From positions 672,001 through 736,000 of the forward strand of contig OY760686.1 of NCBI GenBank assembly GCA_963663865.1: a stretch of 64,000 nt of DNA, in the 5' to 3' direction. The notes under the pieces were generated by a model. The model ran no database searches. It was given only the letters and a program-made list of their open reading frames with translations, and was not told the origin of the DNA. The position numbers and the translations under genes were made by a program. Below are positions 44,149-61,861 of the stretch, piece by piece. Within the stretch, counting starts at the first letter, position 1. Each line of letters starts with the position of its first letter. Origin of the DNA: Spirochaetota bacterium. GTDB lineage: Bacteria > Spirochaetota > UBA4802 > UBA5550.

Positions 44149-45558
44149 TTAAAAAAGAGTGCGGTAGTTGACGAAAGTCTTTTCCCCTTTCTTAATCTCA
44201 ACATTCTCAGTCTCTGTGCGTATTACATTGCCGTTAACGCCAACAAAGTTAAGTGTTAATGAGTGTTTTCCCGGCGGCAGGAAGATGCGCTCAAGCTGCA
44301 GGTTCGCCGGGAGAGTGTGCCAGCACCTCAGGTCGGGCTTTATCTGTGAGATAAGGGCGGCGGCTGTTCCGGCGCCTGCCGCGGCTCCTATGAGTCCCGA
44401 AAAGGCCTTGAGATAATCGTTGTCTGTGCTTTCAGCTATAGCTTTTGCCGCCATTCCGGCCGCTACTGATGCCGCCGCCTTGGCTACGACGCCCGCTGCA
44501 ACCTTTGCGTAGAGCCTGTTGTAGTCATCACGCAGGTTGTTGACTGCGGTGGTTTCAATATCCTCAAGGAGCAGAGTGTTCCCGAGAACACGTCCGTTTC
44601 CGTCGGTCAGTCTGATGCTTCTGACCTGGTTTGAGCGGCGGACGAATTTTGGTATGGGATTTTCCGCCTTACGCAGCGCAGCTGCAACGGCGGCTATGGT
44701 GACCCCGGCCTGGAGATTTTTTGTTCTGAGAGCTATGTTTATTGCCTTCGACATGTTGGCGTCACTCATAAGGTTCCCGCGTGATTGTTTGACGGCACCG
44801 CGGCCCGCCTGGTATATTACTATCAGCTCACCGCTGTCCGCATTGATGTTGTCTTTCCTGCCAAACCTTTTGATCCACGCCGCGTAATCGTCGTTGTAGC
44901 GGAGTTTTTTTGCTATGCGCTGAAGGTCTCGGTGGACGGGGCTCAGACCGGGGGCGAGAGCGAGTATCTGCTTGTACTCAACATACGCGTAATCCCAGGC
45001 GCTGTCGTCTTTCTCGATATCGCCAGTGAGTTCGTAGGCAATGGCCGTGAGGTACTTTGCCATTATGTTCTGCTTGTACTGCCTGCCTGACTCCTTGCCT
45101 ATGCGGGCCAGCTCATCGTTTACCTTCTTGAACTCGACGCGGGCGCTCTCCGAATTTTTCATGATAAGGAAGTTTATTCCAAGATACATGTGGACGAGCA
45201 CCCTTTCGAAGTCTTCGCCCTTGTAATTGGTGGAGGTTTCGTTAATGAACAGCGACGCTGCCTGCCTTGTTACGCTTGTTGCCGCATTGTCGGTTATCTG
45301 TGCGGCGGCCAGAAACACTTCCGCGCTCTTGTCATATTCTTCAGCTGTGTGAAGCATGAGCCCTGCTTCCATGAGGAAGAGGAGCTGGTCTTTCCCTTTT
45401 TCGTTAATGAGCGGGAGGAAATGCCTTGCCGCCCCTGAGGGATCGCCTGAGTAGTATTTCCTCTCCGGCTCTTTTATCAGCTGCGGATAGTTCGCGGAGG
45501 AGCAGGCTATAAAAGCTCCTGTAAGTAAAGTAAGGAATGCTGCCGCGATTTTTTTCAT
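44149..45558 (-). CDS. COG3014-like TPR lipoprotein
   Basis: Lipobox FIAC; YKGEDFE, ARVEF, DLRCWHTLP motifs. Confidence 0.75.
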   Translation of the reverse strand: MKKIAAAFLTLLTGAFIACSSANYPQLIKEPERKYYSGDPSGAARHFLPLINEKGKDQLLFLMEAGLMLHTAEEYDKSAEVFLAAAQITDNAATSVTRQAASLFINETSTNYKGEDFERVLVHMYLGINFLIMKNSESARVEFKKVNDELARIGKESGRQYKQNIMAKYLTAIAYELTGDIEKDDSAWDYAYVEYKQILALAPGLSPVHRDLQRIAKKLRYNDDYAAWIKRFGRKDNINADSGELIVIYQAGRGAVKQSRGNLMSDANMSKAINIALRTKNLQAGVTIAAVAAALRKAENPIPKFVRRSNQVRSIRLTDGNGRVLGNTLLLEDIETTAVNNLRDDYNRLYAKVAAGVVAKAAASVAAGMAAKAIAESTDNDYLKAFSGLIGAAAGAGTAAALISQIKPDLRCWHTLPANLQLERIFLPPGKHSLTLNFVGVNGNVIRTETENVEIKKGEKTFVNYRTLF

Positions 45559-45705
45559 TTGATTACCTCAAGTCGATTAATGTCTGTTGGCTGAAAGCTG
45601 TCTTCCGGGTCCCCCTGTAGCGGCGGCCGATTCAGCTTTCTTTACGAGTCATGAGCTGTGCTATGCTCTGCTATTACGGCATTGGCCGCAAATAGTCATA
45701 TGATA

Positions 45706-46479
45706 TCAGAAAAATGTTCCGATAGAGATTGCCGCTCTCTTGTGCGTGTAGTTGAGTTCTTCTTCAAAGTCATTAACTATCTTTCCCTTGGTTACGGTGT
45801 AAGATATCTCAAACTGAATACCATAGAGGTAGACCCCGGCAGCCAGGCCGTAGTGGAAGCCTCCCTCTCCGTCTGAATAGGTCTCGTCGTTGACTGTCAG
45901 GGACGAAACGGCATTGTAACCTGCTAAAAATGAGACATAGGGGCTTATCTCTGAAGAGGAGAAGTATATCTTTCCGCCCAGATAAATCGGCATGTAAACC
46001 AGTTCATAGGAGTATGATATTTCACTGTATTCCTGCTTGTCCATTACTATATCGAGCCCTATTATTATTGAGAAATAGGAACTCGCGGGTAATAGCAGTT
46101 CGAGTCCGCAGTTCCAGGAGTATCCGTCGGTGTTCTCTGTATAGTTGGTGCCGGTGTCGGCGTTTTCGAAGGCATTGGAGTATCCGTATCCGAGTTTGAC
46201 GCCGAAGGTCCCCTTTCTCGCTGAAGATGAGCCTGTCGTGGAGGCCGTGTTCGAACGGGCTGTTCTTTGCCTCTTAATTCGTTGTTCCCGGGCGGTATCG
46301 GCCGGTGATGTGGAAGAGGACCCCGGGCTGTCAGGAGTTTCCTGAAAGGCGGTATCTCCCTCTTTTTCGTAGGTTCGGTCGACAGGAATTGTCGGATCGG
46401 CAAAGAACCTCGCGTACTGTTCGCCGCACAGGGACAGAGTTATAGCGAGAGCAAGCAGAGTAATTCGGAATTTCTTCAT
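45706..46479 (-). CDS. Small outer-membrane beta-barrel protein with Ser/Thr-rich N-terminal linker
   Basis: GGGGAG RBS; signal peptide; FGVKLG, MPIYLGGK, ISPYV, terminal FF. Confidence 0.7.
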   Translation of the reverse strand: MKKFRITLLALAITLSLCGEQYARFFADPTIPVDRTYEKEGDTAFQETPDSPGSSSTSPADTAREQRIKRQRTARSNTASTTGSSSARKGTFGVKLGYGYSNAFENADTGTNYTENTDGYSWNCGLELLLPASSYFSIIIGLDIVMDKQEYSEISYSYELVYMPIYLGGKIYFSSSEISPYVSFLAGYNAVSSLTVNDETYSDGEGGFHYGLAAGVYLYGIQFEISYTVTKGKIVNDFEEELNYTHKRAAISIGTFF

Positions 46480-46967
46480 TTTATCTCCCCGGTAATTATC
46501 TTGCGTCAAAATGGAGTGTCGATTCTATCTAAACCGGATGAATGCGTCAATTAGTTTTTAGCCCGGCTGTGCTGTGAATATAATTGAGAGCCTGAATGAG
46601 AATTGGACTCTGTTGATTCTATTCTGTTAAGTTTGGACATTAACAATCTCGATTGCCAGGATTAAAAAGTTATATAAATATAACATATATACAAATTATA
46701 ACAAAAAGATAGATGGCTTAAATTTAACCAGCTATTAGTTCTTCTTCACATGCATGAATATAGTTCCCAGAGCATCAATTGATTATTTTGATGCATTTTT
46801 TCAAAAAAAAGTCGTGAAATAGTCCTCCCTTGTCGGGGAGGACGACAGGTATTGAGTTGATATGGTAAGAATAGATCGCATGAGAGTTTTATTTGATTCT
46901 CCTGGGGGAGAGGATTATTATATTTGGGTTCATGGGAATAAAATGCTGGTTGGTGGTTTAACGTATT

Positions 46968-48209
46968 ATGCTACCTAAATTAAATCATTACGATTCCCTT
47001 CCTGGGGTTGTTGTAAACCCGGCGTGTGCGATTGTAATCGGCAATGAGTATTTTGAAATATCAATCAGGCACATTACAGTTGATGCGGGAATAAGAGTAC
47101 TCTCCAAGGTTTTTTCTCGCTCTGCAGGTGTTCCCGGGGACATCGAAAAATGGCTGTGTTTAAATATGGTCAAAGATGTGGCAATACAGGGAGACGGAAA
47201 CAGCTGGAGGATGATCTGTGATAGACTTGAGAATTCCTTTTCTCTTCATCTTACTCACTGCAACGATCTTTTACCGATGGTCGGATTTAACCTACATAAA
47301 AATGAATCAGAAAAAATAGCCGAGCTTCTCCAGTATGGTCTTTTAAAGACAAAATTTATTCCTGACCGATTTACCCGAGAACTTCAGGACATGACGAGAA
47401 TGAGGGAGGAGATAATAGAAAGAATTTCCATGTTGAAATGCAGGATTAGGCTGATTCTGGAGGAAAGTGGAATTTCTCCTTCTCTACTCAGGAGTTTTAA
47501 AGGGATGCTGGATGGGAAAAACAGCGGTTTATATCAAGATGAAAAAGGTTTCACCAAAATTGTTAACTCCAGCTCTGTTTCTGAAAATAAAAAACTAATT
47601 CTGAATATATATGCTTCTGATTTGAGCAAGGCGGAAATGAGTTTTAATCAGATTTCAAACTCAATTGCTGTAATGGACAGGAAATACAGCAATTATATTA
47701 CAAGACTTATAGAAATACCTGGTCTTATAAAAAGATATGCTGAGCGAATAGTGGCTGAAACAGGGACCAATTATGAATGTTTTGACTCATATGAGGATTT
47801 GTTAACCTGGGCTGGTATGGTTCCTTTTTTAGACAATAAAAATTCTAAAAAGGATACTGGGAAAATAGGCAAAAGCGGGAGAGAGTGGTTCAAACGGGCA
47901 ATTACTGATTCTGCGATTGGAGTTGTGAATGCTGGTAGCAGAACTATTTCAGGTAAGTATAAGGAACTCCTTCATAAGTATGGGGTTAGGAAGTCAATGC
48001 TATTTATGGAACAGGCCATTGTATATCTGGTTTTCCGGATTATCAAAGAGGGCAAGAGATATCATGAACTTGAAAAGGATATTCAATCTTCTTTTTTCTT
48101 AAACCAGTCTTCGGGATCAGTCCAGTTGAAAGATGGAAAAGCTTTAGCGGCGCCCTGTCTTGGAAATAAAATCAATTTTAACGAAACCTGGAGGCCGGAT
48201 AGTGATTAA
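46968..48209 (+). CDS. IS110-family transposase/recombinase homologue with catalytic residues apparently lost
   Basis: IAELLQYGLLK..FIP, RELQDMTRMR, IPG..AERIVAETG, F....L.TWAGMVP, GKRYHEL match the IS110 scaffold; DEDD and Ser positions substituted. Confidence 0.8.
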   Translation: MLPKLNHYDSLPGVVVNPACAIVIGNEYFEISIRHITVDAGIRVLSKVFSRSAGVPGDIEKWLCLNMVKDVAIQGDGNSWRMICDRLENSFSLHLTHCNDLLPMVGFNLHKNESEKIAELLQYGLLKTKFIPDRFTRELQDMTRMREEIIERISMLKCRIRLILEESGISPSLLRSFKGMLDGKNSGLYQDEKGFTKIVNSSSVSENKKLILNIYASDLSKAEMSFNQISNSIAVMDRKYSNYITRLIEIPGLIKRYAERIVAETGTNYECFDSYEDLLTWAGMVPFLDNKNSKKDTGKIGKSGREWFKRAITDSAIGVVNAGSRTISGKYKELLHKYGVRKSMLFMEQAIVYLVFRIIKEGKRYHELEKDIQSSFFLNQSSGSVQLKDGKALAAPCLGNKINFNETWRPDSD

Positions 48210-48309
48210 TTTCTATAAACTTGGGAATTATCAATATGGAGTTATCTTCGTTTCTGAATTGATTTTATCAAATATTTTTATAATCTATTTTAGGAGGAGG
48301 ATTTTTTTG

Positions 48310-50481
48310 ATGAAAAAAATTCTGGTACTTTTAAGTCTCTCCGCAGCTTTTTTCTTTGGTTGTGGGGATGACGGAGACGACTCGAAGGAAGTGGTTGATG
48401 ACACCTGTGTAAGTGTGTATTGTGATGATTCTGGATCACTGGTGCAACCTGAGATAGGTGTGAAAACCGGCAGCGGGAAAACAGTAATAACTGTTGATGG
48501 CTATCAGTTCAAAGATTCAAATGGTAATGGGAGTCTGGATGTTTATGAGGATTGGAGACTTTCGGTTTCCGAGAGAGCTGAGGATCTCGTAGCCAGAATG
48601 ACTGCTAATGAGAAGGCAGGATTCATTAATGCTCCCAGCGTAAGCGGACAGACTACTACAGGATCTCTCAAGAACGAAGACGGTACCTGGATTGAAGATA
48701 ATTCAGGTTATAGAGCTATTACAACGCTATTCAGAAGATTCGGAATGCTCACTTTGTCAGCTTCCTCTGAGCCGGAACGGATTGCGACTTATAATAACAG
48801 TCTAAATGAAATCTGTGAAGGTGTATTGCGGGAGGACGGTTCACTCGGACTTGGAATTCCATTTGTCACTTGCACGAATCCGACGCACGGAACGAACTCA
48901 AACTCAACAGTTCTGGTGTCAGCATGGCCGTACGCGATTGGCCTTGGCGCCATTACTGATCCGGCTGTTATTGAAAAATATGCATTAACGGTGAGGGCTG
49001 AGTTGGCAGCGCTGGGACTCCGTTCTTATTACGGACCGCTCGCAGATGTTGCAACCGAGCCCAGGTGGCAGCGGCAGCAGGAAACCTTCGGCTCAAGTCC
49101 TGAAAGAATAGCTGTATATTCTAATATGGTTATCAGAGCGCTTCAGGGAGGAAATTCACTCAAGCCGGGAGGAATAGTATGCGCGATCAAGCATTTTCCC
49201 GGACATGGCGCCCAAATTAAGGGATTTGATTCTCATTACAAAATGGGAAAATATACAGTTAACCCGGGAAACAACTTTGATATGCATGCTTATCCTTTTG
49301 AGAAGGCATTCAGAGAAGTTAATCCGGCTGCATGTATGCCATGTTATTCGATTTACAGAGATCAGCCTTTTGAACAGGTCGCTGCTGGTTTCAACGCTGA
49401 GATCATGAATGAATTAGGCCGTGATCAGCTTGGGTTTACAGGCTACTATACTTCAGACTGGGGATTGTTCGGGATTGGTGGAGGAGTGGATTCACTTCCT
49501 AATTCAGGAACATTCGCAGCATGGGGGGTTGAGGGGCTGACTTTGCCGGAAAAAATAGGGAAAGCTATGGAAGCCGGAATGGATCAGCTTGGTGGTCACG
49601 GGTCAATAATGGATATTATTGATGCGTTGAGCTACGGATATCTTTCTGAAGAAACTCTGGACAGGGCGTGTGCAAGTATCCTGAAAGGCTATTTCACAAT
49701 GGGTCTGTTTGAGAATCCTTATGTTGATGTGGATGCCGCAGGTACTATTTGTAATAATGCTGAAAGTCAGGCTGCAGGCCTCGATGCAATGCACAAATCA
49801 ATTGTTCTGGTAAAGAACAGTGGCAGCACGCTGCCGGCTGCATCGGGGATCAGTATTTATTACGATGGTACGGTAGATGGATCGGATGCAGCCCAGGCGA
49901 CATTTATCAATGAAACGTATGGTGCAACTGCAGTATCTGATATAACGCTGGCTGACATTGCCGTAATAAGGATAAACGGTCCTGTGATTAGCAGGTTCTA
50001 TCCCAATAAACCGACATTTTTGGGTTACGTTGGTGCAAGCAGCCGTTCACTCCAATATTTAGATGAAGAGCCGGACGCAGAGTATGGCGGTTTATACACC
50101 GAAGATTACACTGATCCTCTTGGCAACGTCCATTATGGAGTAATGAAGTCAGACACCATCGGAGAGTTTGAGAAGATCCTAAACGCAAAAAAAGCCATTA
50201 CAGACGCTGGAGCTTCTACCAAACTTGTCGTACTTGTTAATGCCGACAGGCCTCTGGTAATGAAAGAGTTTATAGATTACGTTGATGCCGCTTTCCTGAC
50301 ATTTGGTGCCAGCGATCGTGCAGTTCTCGATCTGGTATTCTCAAAAGATGGGCTTAAACCTACAGGAGTTCTTCCCTTTGAGCTGCCATCTTCAGATACG
50401 GAGGTTGAAGCACAGTTGGAAGACCTTCAGGATGATACAGATGCTCCTCTATACAAGGCAGGTCATTACCTGACTTATTAA
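48310..50481 (+). CDS. GH3 beta-glycosidase lipoprotein
   Basis: Lipobox FFGC; FKDSNGNGSLDVYEDWR, EPRWQR, KHFPG, MPCYS, SDW nucleophile; AGGAGG RBS. Confidence 0.93.
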   Translation: MKKILVLLSLSAAFFFGCGDDGDDSKEVVDDTCVSVYCDDSGSLVQPEIGVKTGSGKTVITVDGYQFKDSNGNGSLDVYEDWRLSVSERAEDLVARMTANEKAGFINAPSVSGQTTTGSLKNEDGTWIEDNSGYRAITTLFRRFGMLTLSASSEPERIATYNNSLNEICEGVLREDGSLGLGIPFVTCTNPTHGTNSNSTVLVSAWPYAIGLGAITDPAVIEKYALTVRAELAALGLRSYYGPLADVATEPRWQRQQETFGSSPERIAVYSNMVIRALQGGNSLKPGGIVCAIKHFPGHGAQIKGFDSHYKMGKYTVNPGNNFDMHAYPFEKAFREVNPAACMPCYSIYRDQPFEQVAAGFNAEIMNELGRDQLGFTGYYTSDWGLFGIGGGVDSLPNSGTFAAWGVEGLTLPEKIGKAMEAGMDQLGGHGSIMDIIDALSYGYLSEETLDRACASILKGYFTMGLFENPYVDVDAAGTICNNAESQAAGLDAMHKSIVLVKNSGSTLPAASGISIYYDGTVDGSDAAQATFINETYGATAVSDITLADIAVIRINGPVISRFYPNKPTFLGYVGASSRSLQYLDEEPDAEYGGLYTEDYTDPLGNVHYGVMKSDTIGEFEKILNAKKAITDAGASTKLVVLVNADRPLVMKEFIDYVDAAFLTFGASDRAVLDLVFSKDGLKPTGVLPFELPSSDTEVEAQLEDLQDDTDAPLYKAGHYLTY

Positions 50482-50505
50482 GAAAGACTATTCTGAAGTA
50501 TTCCT

Positions 50506-50537
50506 GCTCCCCGGCATTTCCTGTCGGGGAGTGTTTT
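50506..50537 (+). terminator. Intrinsic terminator
   Basis: ctccccggca-tttcc-tgtcggggag then gtttt. Confidence 0.7.
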
Positions 50538-50701
50538 AGAAAATATCTGAAACTGCCAGCCAGCAGTTGGCAGATGTGGATGAGGTAAGTCTGAGTTTCT
50601 GTGTCGATATATTTGCTTTGGGGTTGAATCTGTCATACTTTCTTGATGCCATCGGGTTTCTGAAAAAACTAAAATTCAGCGTTGTGGATAAAGTCGAAAT
50701 A

Positions 50702-51898
50702 ATGATTAAGTATAATATAATTACGATAATAGCAATACTCGGATTTGGTCAGGGAGTATTTCTTGCAATTGTTCTGGCAACATCAAAGCAGAACCGTCAG
50801 TCCAACAGGATACTATCAATTTTTATGTTGATACAAGCCGTTGTTTTAGCTTCAAACTGTGTTTTTTCGCCGGATGTTCAGTTGAACCTGCCGCATCTTT
50901 TACGAATCGACTGGCCGCTCTCAATGGCTTTTGGGCCTATTTTTTATTTTTATTATTCCTCCATTCTTGAAAAAAATTTCAAGTTTAAAGCTTACCATAT
51001 TCTTCTTTTTATTCCATTTTTTTTATCAGTGCTGTTTCTAATGCCTCTGTTCGTTCTGGATGGACCCACCAAAACAGATATTCTGAATGCATCTCACAAT
51101 GGAAGAACTCCATCTTCATTAACCTCATATTCCTGGAGTTTCAAATATTTAGTTCCAGCACTTCAGATACAGATGGCTATTTATTGCGGGATATGTATCC
51201 AACGGATAAAGAAATACAGAAAAGAACTCTATAATTACAAATCAAATATCAGCAAAGAGAGTCTTTCCTGGCTTTTATATCTTTCCATAATCATGATTAT
51301 AACTCACCTGTTTAATCTGGTTGGTTTTACTGCTACAGTTTTTTTTGGTAACAAGATAGTTCACCATTCTTATTTAAGCGACAGTCTTGGCGCTATGGTA
51401 GCGCGTAATATAGCCCCTCTTGAGTTTGCTTTGCTCACATACATGATTGGTTATAAAGCCTTAAAACAAAGTGAACTATCTATGATCAGAGAAATCACGA
51501 AGACGCAGAGGAAATATGAGAAGTCATCCTTAACCGATGAAGAGAGCAAAACTATTATGAGTGAACTTTCCACAATCATGACAGAGGAAAAGGCATATAT
51601 GGATTCGGAACTTAATATTGTTTCGCTTGCAGAAAAACTTTCGATCAGCCGACATCATTTGTCTCAGGTTATAAATAGACAGACTGGTAAAAACTTTTAT
51701 GAATATATTAATAACTATAGAATAAATGAAATAATATTTATGCTTCAGTCCGGATTTAATGAAAATAAAAATATTCTCGACGTGGCGTATAGGTCAGGTT
51801 TTGATTCCAAGTCTGCTTTTTACAAATATTTTCGAAAAATTACTGGAATGTCTCCCAGGGAATATATCACAACGAATAAAATGAACAACTTGCAATAA
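50702..51898 (+). CDS. Polytopic membrane AraC-family regulator
   Basis: About 6-7 TMs (FGP..YFY); KYEKSSL, LAEKLSISRHHLSQVIN, FYEYINNYRI, GFDSKSAFY. Confidence 0.92.
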   Translation: MIKYNIITIIAILGFGQGVFLAIVLATSKQNRQSNRILSIFMLIQAVVLASNCVFSPDVQLNLPHLLRIDWPLSMAFGPIFYFYYSSILEKNFKFKAYHILLFIPFFLSVLFLMPLFVLDGPTKTDILNASHNGRTPSSLTSYSWSFKYLVPALQIQMAIYCGICIQRIKKYRKELYNYKSNISKESLSWLLYLSIIMIITHLFNLVGFTATVFFGNKIVHHSYLSDSLGAMVARNIAPLEFALLTYMIGYKALKQSELSMIREITKTQRKYEKSSLTDEESKTIMSELSTIMTEEKAYMDSELNIVSLAEKLSISRHHLSQVINRQTGKNFYEYINNYRINEIIFMLQSGFNENKNILDVAYRSGFDSKSAFYKYFRKITGMSPREYITTNKMNNLQ

Positions 51899-52605: not shown

Positions 52606-55122
52606 TCACCAGGTAAGACCGAAACCTGCCGCATAAGTCGGGTCTACGTCATCATTCATCACGTCCTCGTACTGTGCTTCCACTGCTTCATCAGATGATG
52701 GGAAGTTCCATGGCAGATGAGAAGTCGGAGCAAATCCGTCAACTGCAAAGAGGACCTCCATGAGTTGATCGTCGTAGATTCCAAATTCGATCATAAATGC
52801 ATCTATCTGATCTATCCATGGTTCAACAACCATTGGTCTTGGAGTAAAAGCAACAAGAACTATCTTTACGTTTCTGCCTTCACTTGCGGCTGCCTGTTTT
52901 ACTGCAATCGCGTTATTGATGGCTTCCATCTGTGATAGGGCTGCAGAGTAGTTGCCGTCACGTCCAATGTATCCTCCGCTTGAGTAGTCGACTCCGTCTA
53001 CTTCTGTTGTACCTCCGCCGTTATCAGTTCCACCCGGTCCGGCTGTAGAGTTGATTAGAGCTACATGTTCATCCCATGTACGGTGTCTCCATTCTTCCTC
53101 ATAGTAGTTGAGAAGTGGAGTTTCGTACGAAAGTGGAACCCCGCCTGTGAGACCTCCGTATGTTCCGAATCGTCCTGACACCCTCAGAACAATTACGTCC
53201 GCAGCTGTAATGTCTTCTGTAACATTGGCAGTGGGCAGGTAATCTTCGATAGCAGCATCATCGGTTATACCATCGTAATAAACAACATATTGCGCAGAAT
53301 CTTCCTGGAGAGGTAATATGTCCCCTTCATTCTTAAGAAGTACACAGGCCCGTTTACGCATTTCTTTTTGCTTTGATGTGAATTCTTCAGAAGCCAAAAA
53401 TGCCTGACTTTCTTCAAGGTCCGTATATGGATTTTCAAACAGACCCATTCTCATATAGGTCTCAAGAACCTTGCCAGCAACTTCGTCAATATCTGCTTCT
53501 GTCAGGAATCCTGCATTATAGGCATTTACCCATATTGTGGGCTGTGCCTGACCGAGCTGGTGACCTCCGGCTTTAGCATATCTCATAACAATATAGTGCT
53601 GTTGTTCTATAGCTCCATATACGTCTCCATAACGGCCTGAAATGACAGATGGAGTCCAGTCCTCAAATTGAGGGGCGGTTTCAGGAATGTCTGTTGGTGA
53701 AGCAGGATTTGTCTGAAATGAGAAGGTAAAAGTTTCAGAAGCCTCATCATAATTGTCTATGTAGACAGAATCAGGATAACCCATGTCGGCGAGCCTGAGA
53801 CCATAGTCTCTGGATCCCGAGTTTCCGACACCCCAGTCAGAGGTAACCATACCGTCCCAGCCCCAATCATCGCGAAGAATTTCCTGCATAAGATGTTCTT
53901 CATAGCTGGCGGCTATATAGTCCAGAGTAGTCTGGGCAAATGTATTGGTAGCTGTATTATAGTCAGTAAGATACAGACTATAGCAGGGCATTAAAGCGAG
54001 AGGACCTGCTTCACAGGCAATTTCAAATGCTCGAAGGTGCTCTTCCAGGTTATTACCTTTCATCGGCGCAAAGCGGCCATGATATGTGTGGCTGTCCATT
54101 CCTCCGACATTTGTTCCAGCACCAGGGTAGTGTTTAAGAGTACAGGCAACTCCGGGAATAGGATGCCCGTAGAATCCGTCATCAACACCCTGGAGGCCCT
54201 GCATATAAGCCTTAGTGTTTTCACCAGCTGCTTCACAGGTCGGTCCGCCCATTGTGTCGTATGCCCTTGCCCAGCGGGGTTCTGATAGCGGGTCGCACTG
54301 CGGGCCGTAAATGATTCTGATACCGCCTGCCCTGTAAGCTTGAGCGTGTAAACTTCCTATTTCTTTTGCGTATTCCGGGTCGTTGATCGCACCGAAGGCC
54401 TGGGTGAAAGCCCAGTTTCCGACTATGTCTCCGCCATTTTGTTTAGCAAAGTTAGTCGCAGCGGCATTGTTTCCGGTTCCGGTACATGGGTCGCAGCAGA
54501 ATGCATAGGGGATCCCGTATGTTGTACGTTCACAGGTTCTCTGAACAGCATTAACCAGATTGATCCGTGTTTCCACATCTCCACTTGGTCCACCCATACC
54601 CATTCTTGTATTGTTCATTGGGCCTACTTCTGCGTCGGGACCCCATCCGACAGGAATTCCAGCCCAGCCGTCGTCGCCAATCGCAAAACTTGCCATGTAG
54701 ACGGTTAAAAGGCCTGCTTTTGCTTCAATATCTCCCGACATATTGGAGAGAAGGTCTGCAACACGCGTCTCCAGCGAAAGCCTCCAGTCCTCATAGTCAT
54801 CAAGTTCGTTGTTTTTATTCAGGTCCCTGAATTGGAATGTTACCGGGTCGCCGGCAATTTCATTTTCACCTGTAGCCTCCGGTGTGACCTGTACCTCTAA
54901 AATAGAGACTCCTGTTCCCTCTCTAACCTCGACTTCAGGCTGCCCCTGAACGCCGTCATAACAATACAGGCTGTTATCATCAATACATTTGATGTCTGTA
55001 ATTGTGACCGGCACGACGGGCGCAGGTGTTGATTTTTTGTCGTCATCGCTGCAGGCAGTAAAGGTCATTGAAAAACCAATAGTTGCTAACAGGAGAAACA
55101 AAAATGTTAGATTTTTTTTCAT
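52606..55122 (-). CDS. GH3 beta-glycosidase lipoprotein, paralogue of 48310-50481
   Basis: Lipobox FTAC; FRDLNKNNELDDYEDWR, EPRWAR, KHYPG, MPCYS, SDW. Confidence 0.93.
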   Translation of the reverse strand: MKKNLTFLFLLLATIGFSMTFTACSDDDKKSTPAPVVPVTITDIKCIDDNSLYCYDGVQGQPEVEVREGTGVSILEVQVTPEATGENEIAGDPVTFQFRDLNKNNELDDYEDWRLSLETRVADLLSNMSGDIEAKAGLLTVYMASFAIGDDGWAGIPVGWGPDAEVGPMNNTRMGMGGPSGDVETRINLVNAVQRTCERTTYGIPYAFCCDPCTGTGNNAAATNFAKQNGGDIVGNWAFTQAFGAINDPEYAKEIGSLHAQAYRAGGIRIIYGPQCDPLSEPRWARAYDTMGGPTCEAAGENTKAYMQGLQGVDDGFYGHPIPGVACTLKHYPGAGTNVGGMDSHTYHGRFAPMKGNNLEEHLRAFEIACEAGPLALMPCYSLYLTDYNTATNTFAQTTLDYIAASYEEHLMQEILRDDWGWDGMVTSDWGVGNSGSRDYGLRLADMGYPDSVYIDNYDEASETFTFSFQTNPASPTDIPETAPQFEDWTPSVISGRYGDVYGAIEQQHYIVMRYAKAGGHQLGQAQPTIWVNAYNAGFLTEADIDEVAGKVLETYMRMGLFENPYTDLEESQAFLASEEFTSKQKEMRKRACVLLKNEGDILPLQEDSAQYVVYYDGITDDAAIEDYLPTANVTEDITAADVIVLRVSGRFGTYGGLTGGVPLSYETPLLNYYEEEWRHRTWDEHVALINSTAGPGGTDNGGGTTEVDGVDYSSGGYIGRDGNYSAALSQMEAINNAIAVKQAAASEGRNVKIVLVAFTPRPMVVEPWIDQIDAFMIEFGIYDDQLMEVLFAVDGFAPTSHLPWNFPSSDEAVEAQYEDVMNDDVDPTYAAGFGLTW

Positions 55123-58339: not shown

Positions 58340-60640
58340 ATGACGTTAAAAAACATCAGACGTCCCGGTATGGCAGCGTTTTTGCTGTATCTGGGTGTAT
58401 CGTTCATCTTTGCCGGCGCCATGTCAGGATGCGCGGACAAAAAGGATTCACTTAAGGACGAAGAAGAAGGAACAGTTGAAGGTTTCGAAGAGTTCGATGA
58501 GTACTATGCAGTCAACCCTACGGGAATTAATGAGGTCCCGGGGCTGCCTGGAATCAAGGCTGATGATGAGATACTTCTGGAGGCACAGCAGTATCTTGCT
58601 CTGTTGACGCCTGCAGAAAAAGTTAATCAGATGAGCGGAAAAACAGAGTTCGATTTGACGTATATGTTTGACCAGTATGATAATGAGGAGCGCGGGATAG
58701 ACGGCTTTTACTATCTTGATGGACCCAGGGGGGCCCGCTGGATTCAGGACGCGGCGCCCTATGGAACAACTGTATTTCCCGCCTCAGTAACGAGAGCAAA
58801 CTCCTGGAGTCCTGAGCTTGAAACAGAACTCGGCAAGATCGCGGGCGATGAGACAAGGGCGCTCGGAGCTAACGTAAACCTCGCTCCGTGTATGAATCAG
58901 GTTACGCATCCGCGTCATGGAAGGTCTCAGGAAACCTATGGAGAGGATTCACATCTTCTCGGCGTGATGGGTGGCGCCTATGTTAAAGGTGTTCAGTATG
59001 AAACCGCGGGCAAGAACCCGATTGGTGCGTGCGTAAAGCACTATGCCGCAAACAACATTGAGAATACCAGGATGCAGGTCAACGTGAATGTTGATGAACG
59101 TACGCTTCGCGAGGTATATCTCAGACATTTCAAGAGGGCAATTCAGGAATCAAATCCAGCTATGGTAATGGGTTCGTACAACCAGGTTAACGGATTTTAC
59201 TCATGTATGAATAAACCCCTGCTGAAAGGTTTTCTCAGAGATGAGTGGTACTGGTCAGGAATGGTAATATCAGACTGGTTCGCAACAGGCAGCACAGTTG
59301 AGTCGCTTGAGGCTACGCTTGATGTTGAGATGCCTATTAGTATGGTAAACGACTGGTTCCCGAACATAATTTACGGAACAAGTCTCCAGACTGCTATAGA
59401 TAACGGGACAGCTGATATCGAACTGGTTAACCAGTCCGTTCTCAGAATACTCTATCAGAAAGTGAGACTTGGCATGATGGATTACGATACAGAGCAGCAG
59501 GATACCAGCGTATTACAGAGTGATCCTTCAATGCAGACAGTTCTTGAATCCGCCAGAAAGGGTATAGTACTTCTTAAGAACGAGAGCATTCTGCCTCTTG
59601 ACAAGACAAACCTTTCGAATGGAATCGTAATGCTTGGCGAGTATGCCAACAAGAAAATACTGGGAGACCAGGGAAGCAGCGACGCCCACCCGGTTGAGGC
59701 CAACGAGTCTGACGCGCTTGTTAAGAACTGCTATGAGGGAATCGCCGATGTTCTTGGCGCTGGGAATGTTCAGGCTTTTGTTGATGAAGCCGCTGATACA
59801 GGTAATGCTGTTTCTTCAGCTGATGTAGTTATAGTTGTTGTCGGAACGATTCCCCGTTCTCTCTGGACAGGAGCAGGTGAAGAAGGTGAAGGTTATGACC
59901 GCGAGTCGCTTGCTCTCCCGCAGAGAGACCTCGATAATATCGCCTATGCTACAGAGAACAACGACAATGTTATAGTCGTTGCGCAGATAGGAGGACCCTT
60001 CCTGGTCAAAAACTGGATATCTGATGTTAAAGGTCTTATCTGGGGAGGTTTCATGGGCATGAAGGGCGGAACGGCTCTCGCTGAAATAATCTTCGGAGAT
60101 GTCAACCCGAGCGGTAAAACATGTCAGAGTTTCCCCGTAAACGAAACCGACCTGCCTGCCTTTGACAATGAGAGTGAAGAAGTAACCTACCAGTACTACC
60201 ACGGTTACAGGTATCTTGATAAGCAGGGTACTGCACCTCAGTATTATTTCGGACACGGACTCAGCTATACGACCTACAGCTACTCCAATCTCCAGGTAGC
60301 GGGGGTTGATGAGGACACACTTGAAGTAACAGTGTCTGTTGATGTCCAGAACACGGGAGATATTGACGGAGAAGAGGTAGTCCAGCTCTATGTCGGTTTC
60401 GACAACACAAAGGTAGCTGATTCAATCGGAAGACCAAAGAAGGAGCTAAAAGCGTTCGACCGTGTAGCTCTGAGTGCAGGAGAAAAGAAAACGGTCACTC
60501 TTACAATTGATCCTGAAGACCTGACATACTGGAACGCTGAAGTCGGCAAGATGATTCTCGAAAAAATGGAGTATCAGCTCTATGTTGGAGCTTCATCCGA
60601 TCCGGCAGACCTTTTAACAGGCGCGTTTACCATAGACTGA
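58340..60640 (+). CDS. GH3 beta-glucosidase lipoprotein with C-terminal Fn3-like domain
   Basis: Lipobox MSGC; DGPRG, GRSQETYGED, KHY, SDW, FGHGLSYT, EVVQLY, KELKAF. Confidence 0.95.
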   Translation: MTLKNIRRPGMAAFLLYLGVSFIFAGAMSGCADKKDSLKDEEEGTVEGFEEFDEYYAVNPTGINEVPGLPGIKADDEILLEAQQYLALLTPAEKVNQMSGKTEFDLTYMFDQYDNEERGIDGFYYLDGPRGARWIQDAAPYGTTVFPASVTRANSWSPELETELGKIAGDETRALGANVNLAPCMNQVTHPRHGRSQETYGEDSHLLGVMGGAYVKGVQYETAGKNPIGACVKHYAANNIENTRMQVNVNVDERTLREVYLRHFKRAIQESNPAMVMGSYNQVNGFYSCMNKPLLKGFLRDEWYWSGMVISDWFATGSTVESLEATLDVEMPISMVNDWFPNIIYGTSLQTAIDNGTADIELVNQSVLRILYQKVRLGMMDYDTEQQDTSVLQSDPSMQTVLESARKGIVLLKNESILPLDKTNLSNGIVMLGEYANKKILGDQGSSDAHPVEANESDALVKNCYEGIADVLGAGNVQAFVDEAADTGNAVSSADVVIVVVGTIPRSLWTGAGEEGEGYDRESLALPQRDLDNIAYATENNDNVIVVAQIGGPFLVKNWISDVKGLIWGGFMGMKGGTALAEIIFGDVNPSGKTCQSFPVNETDLPAFDNESEEVTYQYYHGYRYLDKQGTAPQYYFGHGLSYTTYSYSNLQVAGVDEDTLEVTVSVDVQNTGDIDGEEVVQLYVGFDNTKVADSIGRPKKELKAFDRVALSAGEKKTVTLTIDPEDLTYWNAEVGKMILEKMEYQLYVGASSDPADLLTGAFTID

Positions 60641-60681
60641 CACGAAGTAATTGATCTCTGATCAAAACTTCTATTCTCACA

Positions 60682-60705
60682 GCCCCGCCGTTTCAGCGGC
60701 GGGGC
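60682..60705 (+). other. Intercistronic GC-rich hairpin
   Basis: gccccgccg-tttcag-cggcggggc with no U tract; possible mRNA stability element. Confidence 0.55.
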
Positions 60706-60733
60706 ATTACTAACAGAAATAGCAGGTGTAAAA

Positions 60734-61861
60734 ATGAAAAATATAATCAACGGGAAAATGGCGGCATTGATTCTGGCGCTTGCAATCGTCCCGGTCTCTG
60801 CTTTCGCGGTTGAAAGCGACCCTCTAATCCCTAAATTCGAGACAAATAAGCCGAGTATTCCTATCGAATTTTCAGGATACTTCTGGTCAGATTCGACATA
60901 CAGGGAGGACGGTGCTGGGAAACAGACGGAATCGGACAGCACTCAGTACAAGCAGTACGGGCGTCTCGTGCTTGCGGCTAAATTCAGAAAGGAAACATCA
61001 AACGGATACTTCGCGGAGGCAAAAGCCGAGTTTATAGCCCTTGACAACGAGATTGACGGGGGTGCTTTTAAGGCTCATATTCGTGATTCCTATATTAAAC
61101 TGGGCAACCCTTTCTTTGACTTTCAGGCTGGACGGTTCCTTGCGTGGGAGGTCTATCACAAGGGGCAGGGAATGGAGCTCTATTCCTCCGAAGAGACCGG
61201 AGCAGCAAATTCAACTCAGATATACGCCGTTAATGCCAACAGAGAACATGAGGGCAGCGCAGGGCAGTTCGCCTTACACATGTTTCCGAGTGAGACCCTC
61301 AAGTTTGAGCTAAGTGCGGTGTACGGAGATGAACTGACAAACAACATATTAGGTGTAAGGCCTGTTATTGACGCTTCATTCGGCCCGATTCAGATAATTG
61401 CCGGAGCTGAGTACAGAAAAGAAGCAAACATGAAAACGGATTACAAGGATAACAGTGTTATCATGGGCGGCGGAGGAAGAATCCAGTACAACTCGGACTT
61501 CCTGACATTTGGAATCAACGGGACCTACTGTACCTATGAGTACGAGAACCTTCTGGGAGAAATTGACAGAACGAAAAAGTTTACTCAGGTTTCATTCGGC
61601 GGATGGGCGAACATAAACTTCTGGCGGAATTCCATTGGAATAGGCTGTCACTACTCAGAGCGGGAGTATGAATTTGGCGATGTTGATACCCATCTTCAGC
61701 CCTATATTTCATACCTGTACAAGCTCCCGTTCGAAGGCGTCAGCGTAAAGGCTGTTTTTGCTTATGCGAAGGCTGTCAATCAGGAGCAGAACACAAATCT
61801 GGACGAGTTCGAAAACGACATGAAGTCGGTCAGAATAAGAATAGCGTACGACTTCCTCTGA
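60734..61861 (+). CDS. Outer-membrane porin-like protein
   Basis: Signal peptide; IRDSYIKLG, FQAGRF, alternating strands; ends IAYDFL. Confidence 0.7.
   Translation: MKNIINGKMAALILALAIVPVSAFAVESDPLIPKFETNKPSIPIEFSGYFWSDSTYREDGAGKQTESDSTQYKQYGRLVLAAKFRKETSNGYFAEAKAEFIALDNEIDGGAFKAHIRDSYIKLGNPFFDFQAGRFLAWEVYHKGQGMELYSSEETGAANSTQIYAVNANREHEGSAGQFALHMFPSETLKFELSAVYGDELTNNILGVRPVIDASFGPIQIIAGAEYRKEANMKTDYKDNSVIMGGGGRIQYNSDFLTFGINGTYCTYEYENLLGEIDRTKKFTQVSFGGWANINFWRNSIGIGCHYSEREYEFGDVDTHLQPYISYLYKLPFEGVSVKAVFAYAKAVNQEQNTNLDEFENDMKSVRIRIAYDFL

What the first reader, a model, noticed from the sequence alone, without database searches (positions are those of the whole stretch)
46968..48209. Intact but catalytically dead IS110 (bridge recombinase) homologue: possible domesticated RNA-guided regulator
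Seen: uninterrupted 413-aa ORF retaining the IS110 scaffold end to end. By eye against the family consensus, GxDxH becomes AIVIG (V23), AMESTG becomes AIQGDG (Q74), KTDxxD becomes NLHKNE (H110, E113), and the catalytic Ser in WAGxxP-x4-S becomes K291 (a Ser lies two residues later); part of the coiled-coil region is shortened. Established: IS110 recombinases need DEDD plus Ser and are programmed by bridge RNA; nuclease-dead TnpB derivatives (TldR) were exapted as RNA-guided repressors. Inference: deep divergence without stops, with focused active-site loss, implies selection for a binding role. It sits 100 nt upstream of a GH3 gene in a regulator-rich block.
Basis: partly seen in the sequence, partly recalled or inferred. 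Interest (0 to 1): 0.85.

Follow-up and report, generated by a model that had tools for sequence, protein, structure and literature searches.

The report
Inactive IS110 relatives kept beside sugar-enzyme genes
This gene is an intact but catalytically disabled relative of the RNA-guided IS110 "bridge" recombinases, one of nine old diverged copies that the bacterium keeps next to sugar-degrading enzyme genes, so it looks like a jumping gene turned host gene whose new job is still unknown.

Summary
Window 46968-48209 (+) is an uninterrupted 413-aa ORF. It is homologous over its full length to IS110 recombinases (hhalign probability 100, E 8e-58). All five catalytic positions are replaced: V23, Q74, H110, E113 and K291.

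- **Nine copies in one genome.** It is one of nine diverged paralogues (18-50% identity). All nine frames are open, none reaches the curated IS110 score, and none has a near-identical copy.
- **One clade.** With three proteins from one other related assembly they sit on one side of a branch, apart from 28 canonical IS110s.
- **Where sequence was lost.** Losses fall on the catalytic motifs. The coiled-coil entry (R-LR---R-R) and the Tnp-domain core (PG..A..E.G..F..W.G) are kept.
- **Selection.** win versus its closest paralogue gives dN/dS 0.23. Four of six orthologues in the second assembly are 96-98% identical, like two housekeeping proteins.
- **Fixed gene context.** All nine lie on the same strand as, and next to, a GH3 lipoprotein gene. 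Most also have a membrane-anchored AraC regulator.

Domestication of an inactive IS110 derivative is therefore well supported. The RNA-guided regulator idea is not supported. I found no conserved structured RNA, no Rfam match and no RNA-seq run. The only conserved upstream element also occurs at a GH3 locus that lacks this gene.

The parts
46968..48209 (+). IS110-like ORF ('IS110L', 413 aa), intact, with all five catalytic positions replaced (V23, Q74, H110, E113, K291)
46968..47357 (+). Degenerate RuvC-like domain (about aa 1-130). The fold markers (G77, W80, L87) are mostly kept; the DEDD motifs are lost. Boundaries are approximate, taken from the alignment to canonical IS110.
   Evidence: domain limits by analogy with IS621 (PMC11208158, section 'IS621 recombinase structure')
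47358..47702 (+). Coiled-coil region (about aa 131-245). The R137-L139-Q140...R144-x-R146 entry motif is conserved. The linker is about 19 columns shorter than in canonical proteins.
47703..48092 (+). Tnp (Transposase_20) domain (about aa 246-375). The core P251 G252 A258 E264 G266 F272 W281 G283 is kept in 9-10 of 10 dead-clade rows. The Ser loop is degenerate (K291).
46821..46847 (+). 27-nt motif AGTCCTCCCTTGTCGGGGAGGACGACA (contains the palindrome TGTCG-N7-CGACA), ending 121 nt upstream of the ATG. It is shared with the p2 cassette and with an IS110L-less GH3 cassette. Probable operator or activator site of the cassette promoter (inference).
46893..46921 (+). Sigma-70-like hexamer pair TTGATT-17-TATTAT between the motif and the ATG. 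Consensus match only; the number of sites in the region is not above chance.
48310..50481 (+). GH3-family lipoprotein gene (723 aa from the ATG; signal MKKILVLLSLSAAFFFGC), 100 nt downstream, same strand
50567..51898 (+). AraC-type regulator with a hydrophobic, probably membrane-spanning N-terminal part (443 aa, HTH_18 at aa 354-433), third gene of the cassette. Its first ~120 codons are virtually identical to the p2 cassette's.

Best explanation
The ORF encodes a host-retained (domesticated), catalytically inactive descendant of an IS110-family recombinase.

Shown:
- It is a full-length homologue (RuvC-like, coiled-coil and Tnp domains) in which the DEDD tetrad and the Ser nucleophile are all replaced.
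- It belongs to a lineage-restricted clade. That clade has nine paralogues in this genome and three further proteins from one related assembly: one with no close counterpart here, and two that are its orthologues of p4 and p8.
- No member has a near-identical copy.
- Each of the nine lies on the same strand as, and directly beside, a GH3 lipoprotein gene. Usually the cassette runs IS110L-GH3-AraC or GH3-IS110L-AraC.
- The frames are kept open and the proteins evolve under purifying selection.
- The residues that canonical IS110 proteins conserve outside the active site are kept (coiled-coil entry, Tnp core).

Inferred:
- The protein still dimerises and binds nucleic acid but cannot cut or join DNA.
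- In the win and p2 cassettes it is the first gene of the GH3-AraC transcription unit, so it is made when the cassette is induced.
- It acts as a non-catalytic accessory factor of its own cassette, most likely modulating cassette expression at the DNA or mRNA level.

Whether it uses a guide RNA is open and currently unsupported.
For: 1. Homology and dead site. hhalign of A1 against A2 gives probability 100, E 8.2e-58. The catalytic columns read V/Q/H/E/K in win and are hypervariable across the clade. Mutation of any of the five residues abolishes IS621 recombination (PMC11208158, section 'Active site architecture', read).

2. Focused loss. 38 columns are at least 85% conserved in 144 canonical rows. 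Of these, 15 are kept in at least 8 of 10 dead-clade rows, all in the coiled-coil entry or Tnp core plus W80. 13 are kept in at most 2 of 10: D1, E, T, N, K, D3, D4, W, S129, the Ser, A346 and two linker glycines.

3. Not mobile.
- There are 9 matches in the genome and the nearest paralogue is 52% identical.
- 0 of 9 reach the NF033542 cut-off.
- No DNA copy of the gene exceeds 67% identity.
- A six-frame hmmsearch at E<=10 finds no further remnant.

4. Selection.
- 0 in-frame stops in 9 of 9 genes, against 8-47 in the other frames.
- For win versus p2, pN 0.306 against pS 0.673, dN/dS 0.23. The neighbouring GH3 gives 0.135 and the AraC 0.25.
- Orthologues in a second assembly are full length in 6 of 6 found: 98.1, 97.4, 97.2, 96.2, 92.4 and 79.5% identity. 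Two housekeeping proteins give 98.1 and 97.0%, and the GH3 neighbours 90.4-98.9%.

5. Context.
- 9 of 9 are co-directional with a GH3 gene. Eight are within 30-423 nt of one. p6 is separated from its GH3 only by a 1315-bp IS copy.
- The genome has 32 GH3 genes.
- An AraC gene follows directly in 5 cassettes. All 5 of these AraCs fall in one starred 14-member clade of the 30 AraC proteins.

6. One clade. The 12 dead proteins form one side of a branch against 28 canonical ones, SH-aLRT 96.

7. Charge. 10 of 12 dead-clade proteins are basic (pI 8.8-9.8); the canonical median is 9.6.

8. Shared upstream motif. The same motif lies 121 nt before the win ATG and about 135 nt before the GH3 start of an IS110L-less sister cassette. 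This places IS110L as the first gene behind the cassette's control region.
Against: - No function has been measured, and no expression data exist. No RNA run was available.
- No 3D model could be made, so every statement about the active site rests on sequence and profile alignment.
- Repertoire turnover. win itself has no orthologue above 52% identity in 5.8 billion protein clusters, although the second assembly holds orthologues of six other paralogues. That assembly also has a member (P0045) that this genome lacks. So individual copies are dispensable or fast-changing.
- 23 or 24 of the 32 GH3 genes manage without an IS110L. Adjacency needs at least 6 gains or losses on the GH3 tree, no better than shuffled labels (68 of 500 shuffles as low).
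- The nine paralogues are not independent observations if whole cassettes were duplicated.
- dS between win and p2 is near saturation (1.71), so the dN/dS value is rough.
- p9 and p8 orthologues are clearly less conserved (92.4% and 79.5%).
Confidence: 0.6

Rival explanations
1. RNA-guided transcription factor. The dead IS110 protein still binds a bridge-RNA-like guide encoded nearby or in trans, and is steered to a promoter of the GH3/AraC cassette, as TldR proteins are.
For: - The parts of the protein kept in the clade are those conserved in all RNA-guided IS110 enzymes.
- There is precedent for dead RNA-guided transposon proteins becoming regulators. I saw TldR papers only as search listings and abstracts. 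For Nop5 as an inactive IS110 relative I read the main text of 10.1101/2024.06.21.599552.
- The association with regulated operons is tight.
- win has 458 nt of AT-rich upstream spacer that could hold an RNA gene.
Against: - Between win and p2 leaders the only conserved block is a 22-27-nt motif, which also occurs at a cassette without IS110L.
- RNAalifold on the two leaders gives only -11 kcal/mol and 14 pairs.
- Fold z-scores are the same on both strands for win (-2.68 and -2.70) and inconsistent across the nine loci. Upstream z is at or below -2 in 4 of 9, two of which hold the terminator of the upstream gene. Downstream z is at or below -2 in 1 of 9.
- p7, p8 and p9 have only 130-200 nt upstream, and 8 of 9 have at most 167 nt downstream.
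- No Rfam match. However, Rfam also found nothing in three loci fetched for their matches to this protein (one verified as canonical IS110), so it may simply lack such a family.
Confidence: 0.12
2. Non-catalytic recombination helper. The proteins synapse or mark GH3 cassettes and promote gene conversion or shuffling among the 32 GH3 paralogues, with host enzymes doing the strand exchange. This would diversify or homogenise surface lipoproteins.
For: - There is a clear recent conversion tract. The first ~120 codons of the AraC genes of the win and p2 cassettes have pS 0.00-0.02, while the rest has pS 0.24-0.71.
- GH3 genes next to deeply diverged IS110L genes are much less diverged than the IS110L genes.
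- The ancestral activity of the family is synapsis of two DNAs (PMC11208158, section 'Synaptic complex formation').
Against: - Gene conversion between paralogues needs no dedicated factor.
- AraC genes of the cassettes are as diverged as the IS110L genes, so slow GH3 evolution explains much of the contrast.
- No flanking direct or inverted repeats of note around the gene.
- No rearrangement joints involving the gene were seen, but only contigs could be examined.
Confidence: 0.08
3. RNA-binding scaffold or post-transcriptional factor (Nop5-like). The protein binds the cassette mRNA or another RNA without addressing DNA.
For: - Nop5/Prp31 are proposed to be inactive IS110-like proteins that keep the coiled coil and the C-terminal helical domain for RNP assembly (10.1101/2024.06.21.599552, main text).
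- The same two regions are the conserved ones here.
Against: - No Nop-domain match in Pfam at E<=10.
- No partner genes (an L7Ae-like protein or a methyltransferase) were seen among the ORFs of the nine neighbourhoods, though only the GH3 and AraC neighbours were scanned against Pfam.
- No conserved RNA element was found.
Confidence: 0.08
4. Functionless relic. These are old dead IS copies that merely persist, or persist only because their DNA supplies spacing or promoter sequence to the GH3 gene.
For: - Catalytic residues are gone.
- Composition is heterogeneous (GC 0.30-0.53 against 0.459 for the genome).
- win has no orthologue in the second assembly.
- 23 or 24 of 32 GH3 genes lack such a neighbour.
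- A third assembly holds a split p4 orthologue (227 + 58 aa).
Against: - 9 of 9 frames are open despite divergence to 18-50% identity.
- pN is far below pS.
- 15 canonical core columns are kept in at least 8 of 10 rows, while active-site columns drift freely.
- Orthologues are as conserved as housekeeping proteins in 4 of 6 cases.
- The third assembly also has its GH3 genes in pieces (194 aa; 104 + 589 aa). This points to assembly frameshifts rather than specific decay.
Confidence: 0.08
5. Still an active recombinase that uses other residues, or a partner enzyme supplied in trans.
For: - E113 keeps an acidic residue at D4, and S293 lies two residues from the Ser column.
- p5 keeps two acidic positions, and P0045 keeps the Glu.
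Against: - None of these residues is conserved within the clade. The five columns read V,V,L,S,N,I,Y,L / Q,Q,I,V,D,M,A,V / H,K,N,P,D,-,Q,E / E,E,E,I,A,E,I,T / K,G,E,D,K,S,I,E.
- There is no canonical IS110 gene in the genome to act in trans: 0 of 9 reach the cut-off and no extra hit appears.
- There are no recent copies.
Confidence: 0.04

Closest known systems
IS110/IS1111-family bridge recombinases (e.g. IS621, PDB 8WT6)
   Same: Homologous over the whole length: RuvC-like N-terminal domain, coiled coil and Tnp (Transposase_20) domain. It shares the conserved R-LR---R-R coiled-coil entry and the PG..A..E.G..F..W.G core.
   Different: - All five catalytic residues are replaced.
- It scores below the curated family cut-offs (63 against 140 bits; 19.4 against 29 bits).
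- There are no near-identical copies.
- No recognisable bridge RNA or element ends were found.
- It sits at a fixed position inside GH3/AraC cassettes.
TldR (TnpB-like nuclease-dead repressors)
   Same: The same evolutionary logic: a transposon-encoded, RNA-guided DNA enzyme that lost catalysis, became single-locus and is genetically tied to host genes. For the TldR literature I saw only search listings and abstracts.
   Different: - A different protein superfamily (IS110 RuvC-Tnp rather than TnpB).
- No guide RNA was found here.
- The family is expanded to nine paralogues in one genome.
- The partner genes are GH3 lipoproteins and AraC regulators.
Nop5/Nop56/Nop58/Prp31 (archaeal and eukaryotic)
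   Same: Proposed exaptations of IS110-like proteins with an inactivated RuvC-like fold, a retained coiled coil and a C-terminal helical domain (10.1101/2024.06.21.599552, main text read).
   Different: - Those proteins are ancient, universal in their domains of life and lack the Ser-loop region. This clade is bacterial, young in distribution (one genus-level lineage) and still clearly alignable to IS110 throughout.
- No Nop-domain match.
Piv/MooV site-specific invertases (recalled, not from a call)
   Same: IS110-family proteins that serve the host at a fixed locus rather than transposing.
   Different: As I recall, Piv keeps the DEDD residues and inverts a segment bounded by inverted repeats. 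Here the residues are lost, and no such repeats flank the gene or its leader.
RAYTs (domesticated IS200-like transposases; PMC5581495, passages read)
   Same: Transposase descendants that behave like host genes: no recent duplicates and vertical retention.
   Different: - A different family.
- As I recall (not from a call), RAYTs keep their catalytic residues and act on REPINs. That paper used IS110 only as a selfish comparator (66% of IS110 genes had a copy at least 95% identical on the same replicon). Here 0 of 9 do.

Membership tests
IS110-family recombinase (NF033542 / PF01548 + PF02371) | Full-length homology: RuvC-like domain, coiled coil, Tnp domain | tested here: met
   hhalign of A1 against A2 gives probability 100, E 8.2e-58, 365 aligned columns. 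PF02371 scores 33 bits against a 21.3 cut-off. 8 of 9 paralogues match PF02371 and 7 of 9 match PF01548 at E<=0.01.
IS110-family recombinase (NF033542 / PF01548 + PF02371) | Score at or above the curated family cut-offs | tested here: not met
   NF033542 scores 63 bits against 140. PF01548 scores 19.4 bits against 29 and matches only profile positions 99-152. 0 of 9 paralogues reach the NF033542 cut-off.
IS110-family recombinase (NF033542 / PF01548 + PF02371) | DEDD catalytic tetrad in the RuvC domain | tested here: not met
   V23, Q74, H110 and E113. These columns are mapped to IS621 D11/E60/D102/D105 through A2.
IS110-family recombinase (NF033542 / PF01548 + PF02371) | Catalytic Ser in the Tnp-domain loop | tested here: not met
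   K291 sits at the Ser column. S293 is nearby but not conserved: the column keeps Ser in 1 of 10 dead-clade rows.
IS110-family recombinase (NF033542 / PF01548 + PF02371) | Bridge/seek RNA in the left or right non-coding end (PMC11208160, passages) | tested here: inconclusive
   No conserved structure was found and Rfam gave no match. No covariance model of bridge RNAs was available, and no RNA data.
IS110-family recombinase (NF033542 / PF01548 + PF02371) | Behaviour of an insertion sequence: several near-identical copies, definable ends | tested here: not met
   The nearest paralogue is 52% identical in protein and 66% in DNA. No terminal repeats.
TldR-like dead RNA-guided regulators (analogy of mechanism, not homology) | Catalytically inactivated descendant of an RNA-guided transposon enzyme, fixed next to host genes | tested here: met
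   (for an IS110 ancestor rather than TnpB).
TldR-like dead RNA-guided regulators (analogy of mechanism, not homology) | Adjacent guide RNA with complementarity to a target promoter | tested here: inconclusive
   None was recognised. This cannot be excluded without RNA data.
TldR-like dead RNA-guided regulators (analogy of mechanism, not homology) | TnpB/Cas12-type protein fold | tested here: not met
   The Pfam scan at E<=10 lists only the two IS110 families.
Nop5/Prp31 family | Nop domain (PF01798) match | tested here: not met
   Not among the Pfam matches at E<=10.
Anti-phage defence proteins (PADLOC) | Match to any PADLOC model | tested here: not met
   0 families for win, p5 and p8 at E<=0.01.

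The most novel reading that the evidence does not exclude
A bacterial lineage has turned the bridge-recombinase scaffold into a multi-copy family of programmable, non-cutting locus-specific factors. Each IS110L would bind a short guide RNA, made from its own cassette or in trans. It would use that RNA to address the promoter or mRNA of its own GH3-AraC glycan-utilisation cassette. This would give each of nine paralogous cassettes a private layer of control. It would be the first IS110-derived counterpart of TldR and a living bacterial analogue of the IS110-to-Nop5 transition.
Probability: 0.12. Interest if true: 0.92.

Novelty: new variant of a known kind. Interest (0 to 1): 0.72.

Why it matters
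IS110 enzymes are the only known recombinases programmed by a bispecific guide RNA. Their proposed descent into Nop5/Prp31 suggests the scaffold can be reused without catalysis.

My four literature searches found no described bacterial family of catalytically dead IS110 derivatives. The one systematic homologue survey I read reported only IS110, Nop5-type and Prp31 families.

Here there is a compact natural experiment. One genome holds nine intact, diverged, active-site-less copies. All are wired into the same kind of operon, and orthologues exist in a related assembly.

If the proteins bind nucleic acid specifically, they offer three things:
- a new class of regulators;
- a view of what an IS110 scaffold does once catalysis is lost;
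- possibly naturally 'dead' bridge proteins for DNA targeting.

If they prove inert, they are still an unusual case of long-term retention of dead transposase genes that needs explaining.

Tried and rejected

**Searches that found nothing or could not run.**
- RNA evidence: no RNA holder was listed for window 46400-48400.
- Rfam gave only chance-level snoRNA matches below gathering scores in 45500-49000. In ten further loci it found only a 5S rRNA.
- PADLOC gave no match.
- A phmmer search of the PDB with the single protein gave only coiled-coil noise. The profile A1 found IS621 at E 5.9e-05, in the Tnp domain only.
- Repeats: no convincing terminal, direct or inverted repeats around the gene.

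**Laying contigs of four DNA runs on 45500-51000.**
- Contigs of X1, X3 and X5 cover 45500-48324 without a difference.
- In X6 a more abundant related contig, with 59 differences over 45500-46575, ends at 46575. The gene itself is covered only by a low-depth identical contig.
- A contig end proves nothing, so I draw no conclusion about presence or absence in that strain.
- The joints listed all lie inside the multi-copy GH3 and AraC parts.

**The 27-nt motif.** I first took the TGTCG-N7-CGACA hairpin upstream of win and p2 for a possible RNA element. I dropped this after finding the same motif upstream of an IS110L-less GH3 cassette.

**Relatives.** In 40 genomes of the same family or order, and then in all 63 other genomes held for the family, only canonical or fragmentary IS110 hits appeared. 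G017 is canonical and G076 is a fragment with a stop.

**Supplements.** Supplementary tables of 10.1101/2024.06.21.599552 and PMC11208160 (homologue lists) were not open to me. They might list inactive bacterial IS110 homologues.
Full report
**1. The observation.**
Window 46968..48209 (+) is an uninterrupted ATG-started ORF of 413 aa. It has no in-frame stop against 12-38 stops in each of the other five frames.

It is a true but remote IS110 homologue:
- Pfam Transposase_20 scores 33 bits (cut-off 21.3), aa 246-323.
- DEDD_Tnp_IS110 matches only with its last third, 19.4 bits (cut-off 29).
- NCBIfam NF033542 'IS110 family RNA-guided transposase' scores 63 bits against a cut-off of 140.

I aligned the nine paralogues (A1) and 30 canonical relatives (A2). 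The profile-profile comparison gives probability 100, E 8.2e-58, over 365 columns. It covers all three domains: RuvC-like, coiled coil and Tnp.

In that alignment, and independently in a 161-row MAFFT alignment, the catalytic columns fall on V23, Q74, H110, E113 and K291. A2 in turn aligns to the solved IS621 chain so that these columns are D11, E60, D102, D105 and S241 (the chain index is offset by two). Mutation of any of these five abolishes IS621 recombination (PMC11208158, section 'Active site architecture').

The linker between the coiled-coil helices is about 19 columns shorter than in canonical proteins. The next gene, a GH3 lipoprotein, starts 100 nt after the stop. An AraC-type regulator follows.

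**2. It is not alone.**
The window's genome is a single contig of 3,156,400 bp. It holds nine matches to this protein: win plus p2-p9. Identity to win is 52, 33, 29, 30, 29, 26, 27 and 25% over the matched parts, or 50 down to 18% over the full alignment.
- None reaches the IS110 cut-off (0 of 9).
- A six-frame hmmsearch with the A1 profile at E<=10 returns the same nine and nothing else. So there are no canonical copies and no detectable wrecks.
- All nine frames are open. The 'TAG' reported inside p5 is its natural stop.
- DNA comparison of each locus with the genome shows no copy of any of the nine genes above 67% identity.

These are therefore not copies of an active insertion sequence.

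**3. The active site is gone in the whole clade, and only the active site.**
Across the eight paralogues that keep the N-terminus, the five catalytic columns read as follows:
- D1: V,V,L,S,N,I,Y,L
- E: Q,Q,I,V,D,M,A,V
- D3: H,K,N,P,D,-,Q,E
- D4: E,E,E,I,A,E,I,T
- Ser: K,G,E,D,K,S,I,E

These columns are not merely substituted. They drift freely.

I then took the 38 columns that are at least 85% conserved in 144 canonical rows and asked what ten dead-clade rows have there.
- 15 columns are kept in at least 8 of 10 rows. They are W80, R137, L139, R140, R144, R146, P251, G252, A258, E264, G266, F272, W281, G283 and A343. These form the coiled-coil entry and the Tnp core.
- 13 columns are kept in at most 2 of 10 rows. 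They are the GxD, ESTG, N, KTDxxDxxW and Ser-loop positions, plus S129, A346 and two linker glycines.

S293, the possible 'rescue' serine, is not conserved. p2, the closest paralogue, has no Ser in that loop. Most members remain basic (pI 8.8-9.8 in 10 of 12; canonical median 9.6).

**4. Distribution.**
A word-indexed search of 5.8 billion clusters found only win itself and p2 above 30% identity.

An exhaustive profile search of 1.84 billion representatives gave 18,586 hits at E<=0.001. Among the best 150, the only additional active-site-less close relatives are P0038, P0043 and P0045. From 232 bits downward the list is canonical: 115 of the 161 rows aligned carry D-E-D-D-S.

All three extra proteins come from one other assembly, with a contig of 1,816,914 bp.

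In a tree, the 12 dead proteins form one side of a branch against 28 canonical ones (SH-aLRT 96). A single origin is therefore not ruled out.

Relatives were searched in two rounds. The first covered 40 genomes of the same family or order. The second covered all 63 other genomes held for the family. Only canonical or fragmentary IS110 hits were found, and no member of this clade.

**5. Selection.**
For win versus p2, pN is 0.306 and pS 0.673, giving dN/dS 0.23. The adjacent GH3 genes give 0.135 and the AraC genes 0.25. dS for the IS110-like pair (1.71) is near saturation, so the ratio is rough, but the direction is clear.

The second assembly has full-length orthologues of six of the nine:

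| Paralogue | Identity to its orthologue |
|---|---|
| p5 | 98.1% |
| p6 | 97.4% |
| p4 | 97.2% |
| p2 | 96.2% |
| p9 | 92.4% |
| p8 | 79.5% |

Between the same two assemblies, two housekeeping proteins from the window are 98.1 and 97.0% identical. Four GH3 neighbours are 90.4-98.9% identical. So four of the six orthologues are as conserved as ordinary genes.

Evidence in the other direction:
- win, p3 and p7 have no member from that assembly in their 90% clusters.
- For win, nothing lies between 52 and 100% identity anywhere.
- P0045 has no counterpart here. The repertoire therefore turns over.

A third assembly carries p4 split into 227 + 58 aa. But its GH3 genes are also in pieces. I read this as assembly frameshifts, not decay.

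**6. Context.**
ORF maps of all nine loci, Pfam scans of the neighbours and genome-wide lists of GH3 (32 genes) and HTH_18 (30 genes) give one picture. Every IS110-like gene lies on the same strand as, and next to, a GH3 lipoprotein gene of about 705-810 aa. The gaps are 30, 83, 101, 105, 132, 145, 188 and 423 nt.

The ninth, p6, is separated from its GH3 by 1796 nt. That gap contains a 1315-bp element with a 100% identical second copy elsewhere, which is a later IS insertion.

There are two arrangements:
- IS110L-GH3-AraC: win, p2 and p4. Variants without their own AraC are p3, p5 and p9.
- GH3-IS110L-AraC: p7 and p8, which are sisters in the protein tree.

The five AraC genes that follow directly all fall in one starred 14-member clade of the 30 AraC proteins. 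They are about as diverged as the IS110-like genes. The GH3 genes are much less diverged, and adjacency is scattered on their tree (at least 6 changes; 68 of 500 shuffles as low).

So the cassettes are old. GH3 evolves slowly or is homogenised, and IS110-like genes have been lost from, or never accompanied, many GH3 duplicates. A conversion tract is visible directly: the first ~120 AraC codons of the win and p2 cassettes have pS 0.00-0.02.

**7. The upstream region and the RNA question.**
Between win and p2, the 458-nt and 566-nt upstream spacers share only a 22-27-nt block. It contains TGTCG-N7-CGACA and ends 121 nt before the win ATG.

With up to 6 mismatches this motif occurs three times in the genome. 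The third site lies about 135 nt upstream of the start of a GH3 gene that has no IS110-like gene. That GH3 is the sister of the win/p2 GH3s, and its AraC is the sister of the win/p2 AraCs.

I therefore read the motif as the control site of that cassette subfamily. IS110L would then be the first gene behind it (inference). A sigma-70-like hexamer pair lies between the motif and the ATG, but such matches are not above chance in this region.

Nothing speaks for a bridge-RNA-like gene:
- RNAalifold on the two leaders finds 14 pairs at -11 kcal/mol.
- The win leader folds equally well on both strands, z -2.68 and -2.70.
- Across the nine loci, upstream z-scores run from -4.3 to +1.6. The two strongest are the terminators of the upstream GH3 genes. 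Downstream spacers are mostly too short (63-167 nt in eight of nine) and unstructured.
- Rfam finds nothing.

Bridge RNAs lie in the left end in the IS110 group and in the right end in the IS1111 group (PMC11208160, passages). Neither side shows one here. I had neither a bridge-RNA covariance model nor any RNA data, so this is absence of evidence.

**8. Reading.**
The well-supported core is that this is a domesticated, catalytically inactive IS110 derivative. It is one of a lineage-specific family wired into GH3-AraC cassettes and kept by selection.

The mechanism is inferred. The retained coiled coil and Tnp core suggest a dimeric nucleic-acid-binding protein that can no longer cut. Its position suggests co-expression with, and action on, its own cassette.

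I rank the readings as follows:
- A generic non-catalytic accessory or regulatory role: 0.6, for the whole statement including domestication.
- RNA-guided regulator: 0.12.
- Helper of cassette recombination or gene conversion: 0.08.
- Nop5-like RNA scaffold: 0.08.
- Functionless relic: 0.08.
- Cryptically active recombinase: 0.04.

**9. Comparison with what is known, and novelty.**
- It is related to IS110 recombinases but fails their defining features: catalytic residues, curated score, IS behaviour and bridge RNA.
- It resembles TldR in evolutionary logic but not in fold.
- It parallels the proposed IS110-to-Nop5 exaptation (10.1101/2024.06.21.599552, main text), whose authors reported no further homologue families.

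Four full-text searches turned up no description of dead bacterial IS110 derivatives or of an IS110-GH3-AraC association.

I class it as a new variant of a known kind, namely a domesticated inactive transposon enzyme. Interest is 0.72: the pattern is striking and testable, but function and any RNA partner remain unshown, and the clade is so far confined to one narrow lineage.

Noticed in passing
whole genome G000; in the window GH3 genes at 48310-50481 (+), about 52606-55122 (-) and about 58340-60640 (+): A 3.16-Mb genome carries 32 GH3-family genes, nearly all with lipoprotein signals, and 30 AraC/HTH_18 regulators, most with a long hydrophobic N-terminal part. GH3 plus membrane-AraC looks like the organism's standard glycan-sensing module.
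   Followed up: partly
window about 50482-50930 versus genome 560694-561140 (p2 cassette): The GH3-AraC spacer and the first ~120 codons of the AraC genes of the win and p2 cassettes are virtually identical (pS 0.00-0.02). The rest of the genes has pS 0.24-0.71. This is a recent gene-conversion tract.
   Followed up: partly
genome 570178-573885 (-), outside the window: A sister cassette without an IS110-like gene carries the same 27-nt upstream motif. Its GH3 reads as two overlapping ORFs (158 aa + 611 aa), so it is either frameshifted or mis-assembled.
   Followed up: partly
L025 (genome about 60100-61800), between p6 and its GH3: A 1315-bp element with two ORFs on the opposite strand (285 aa and 116 aa). 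It has a 100% identical second copy at genome 1611848-1613162. It appears to be an active insertion sequence that has split the p6 cassette.
   Followed up: no
L025 13286-13402 (-), upstream of p6: A 5S rRNA gene (95 bits) lies in the 800-nt spacer upstream of the p6 IS110-like gene.
   Followed up: no
genome about 554200-554900 and 556640-556870 (upstream of p2): A dispersed repeat family with dozens of copies of roughly 60-450 bp at 75-97% identity scattered over the genome. Part of it lies in the spacer upstream of p2.
   Followed up: no
window 48166-48177 and 48257-48268: A perfect 12-nt inverted repeat (ATAAAATCAATT / AATTGATTTTAT) brackets the stop codon of the IS110-like gene and most of the 100-nt spacer before the GH3 gene.
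   Followed up: no
nine paralogues, genome-wide: The G+C content of the nine IS110-like genes ranges from 0.30 (p8) to 0.53 (p5), against 0.459 for the genome. This is far more spread than their GH3 neighbours, at 0.43-0.52.
   Followed up: no
window 45500-46575: In one metagenome run a more abundant related strain (59 differences over this stretch, and an 8-nt insertion behind 45621) is represented by a contig that ends at 46575, just upstream of the IS110-like gene. What follows in that strain is unknown.
   Followed up: no
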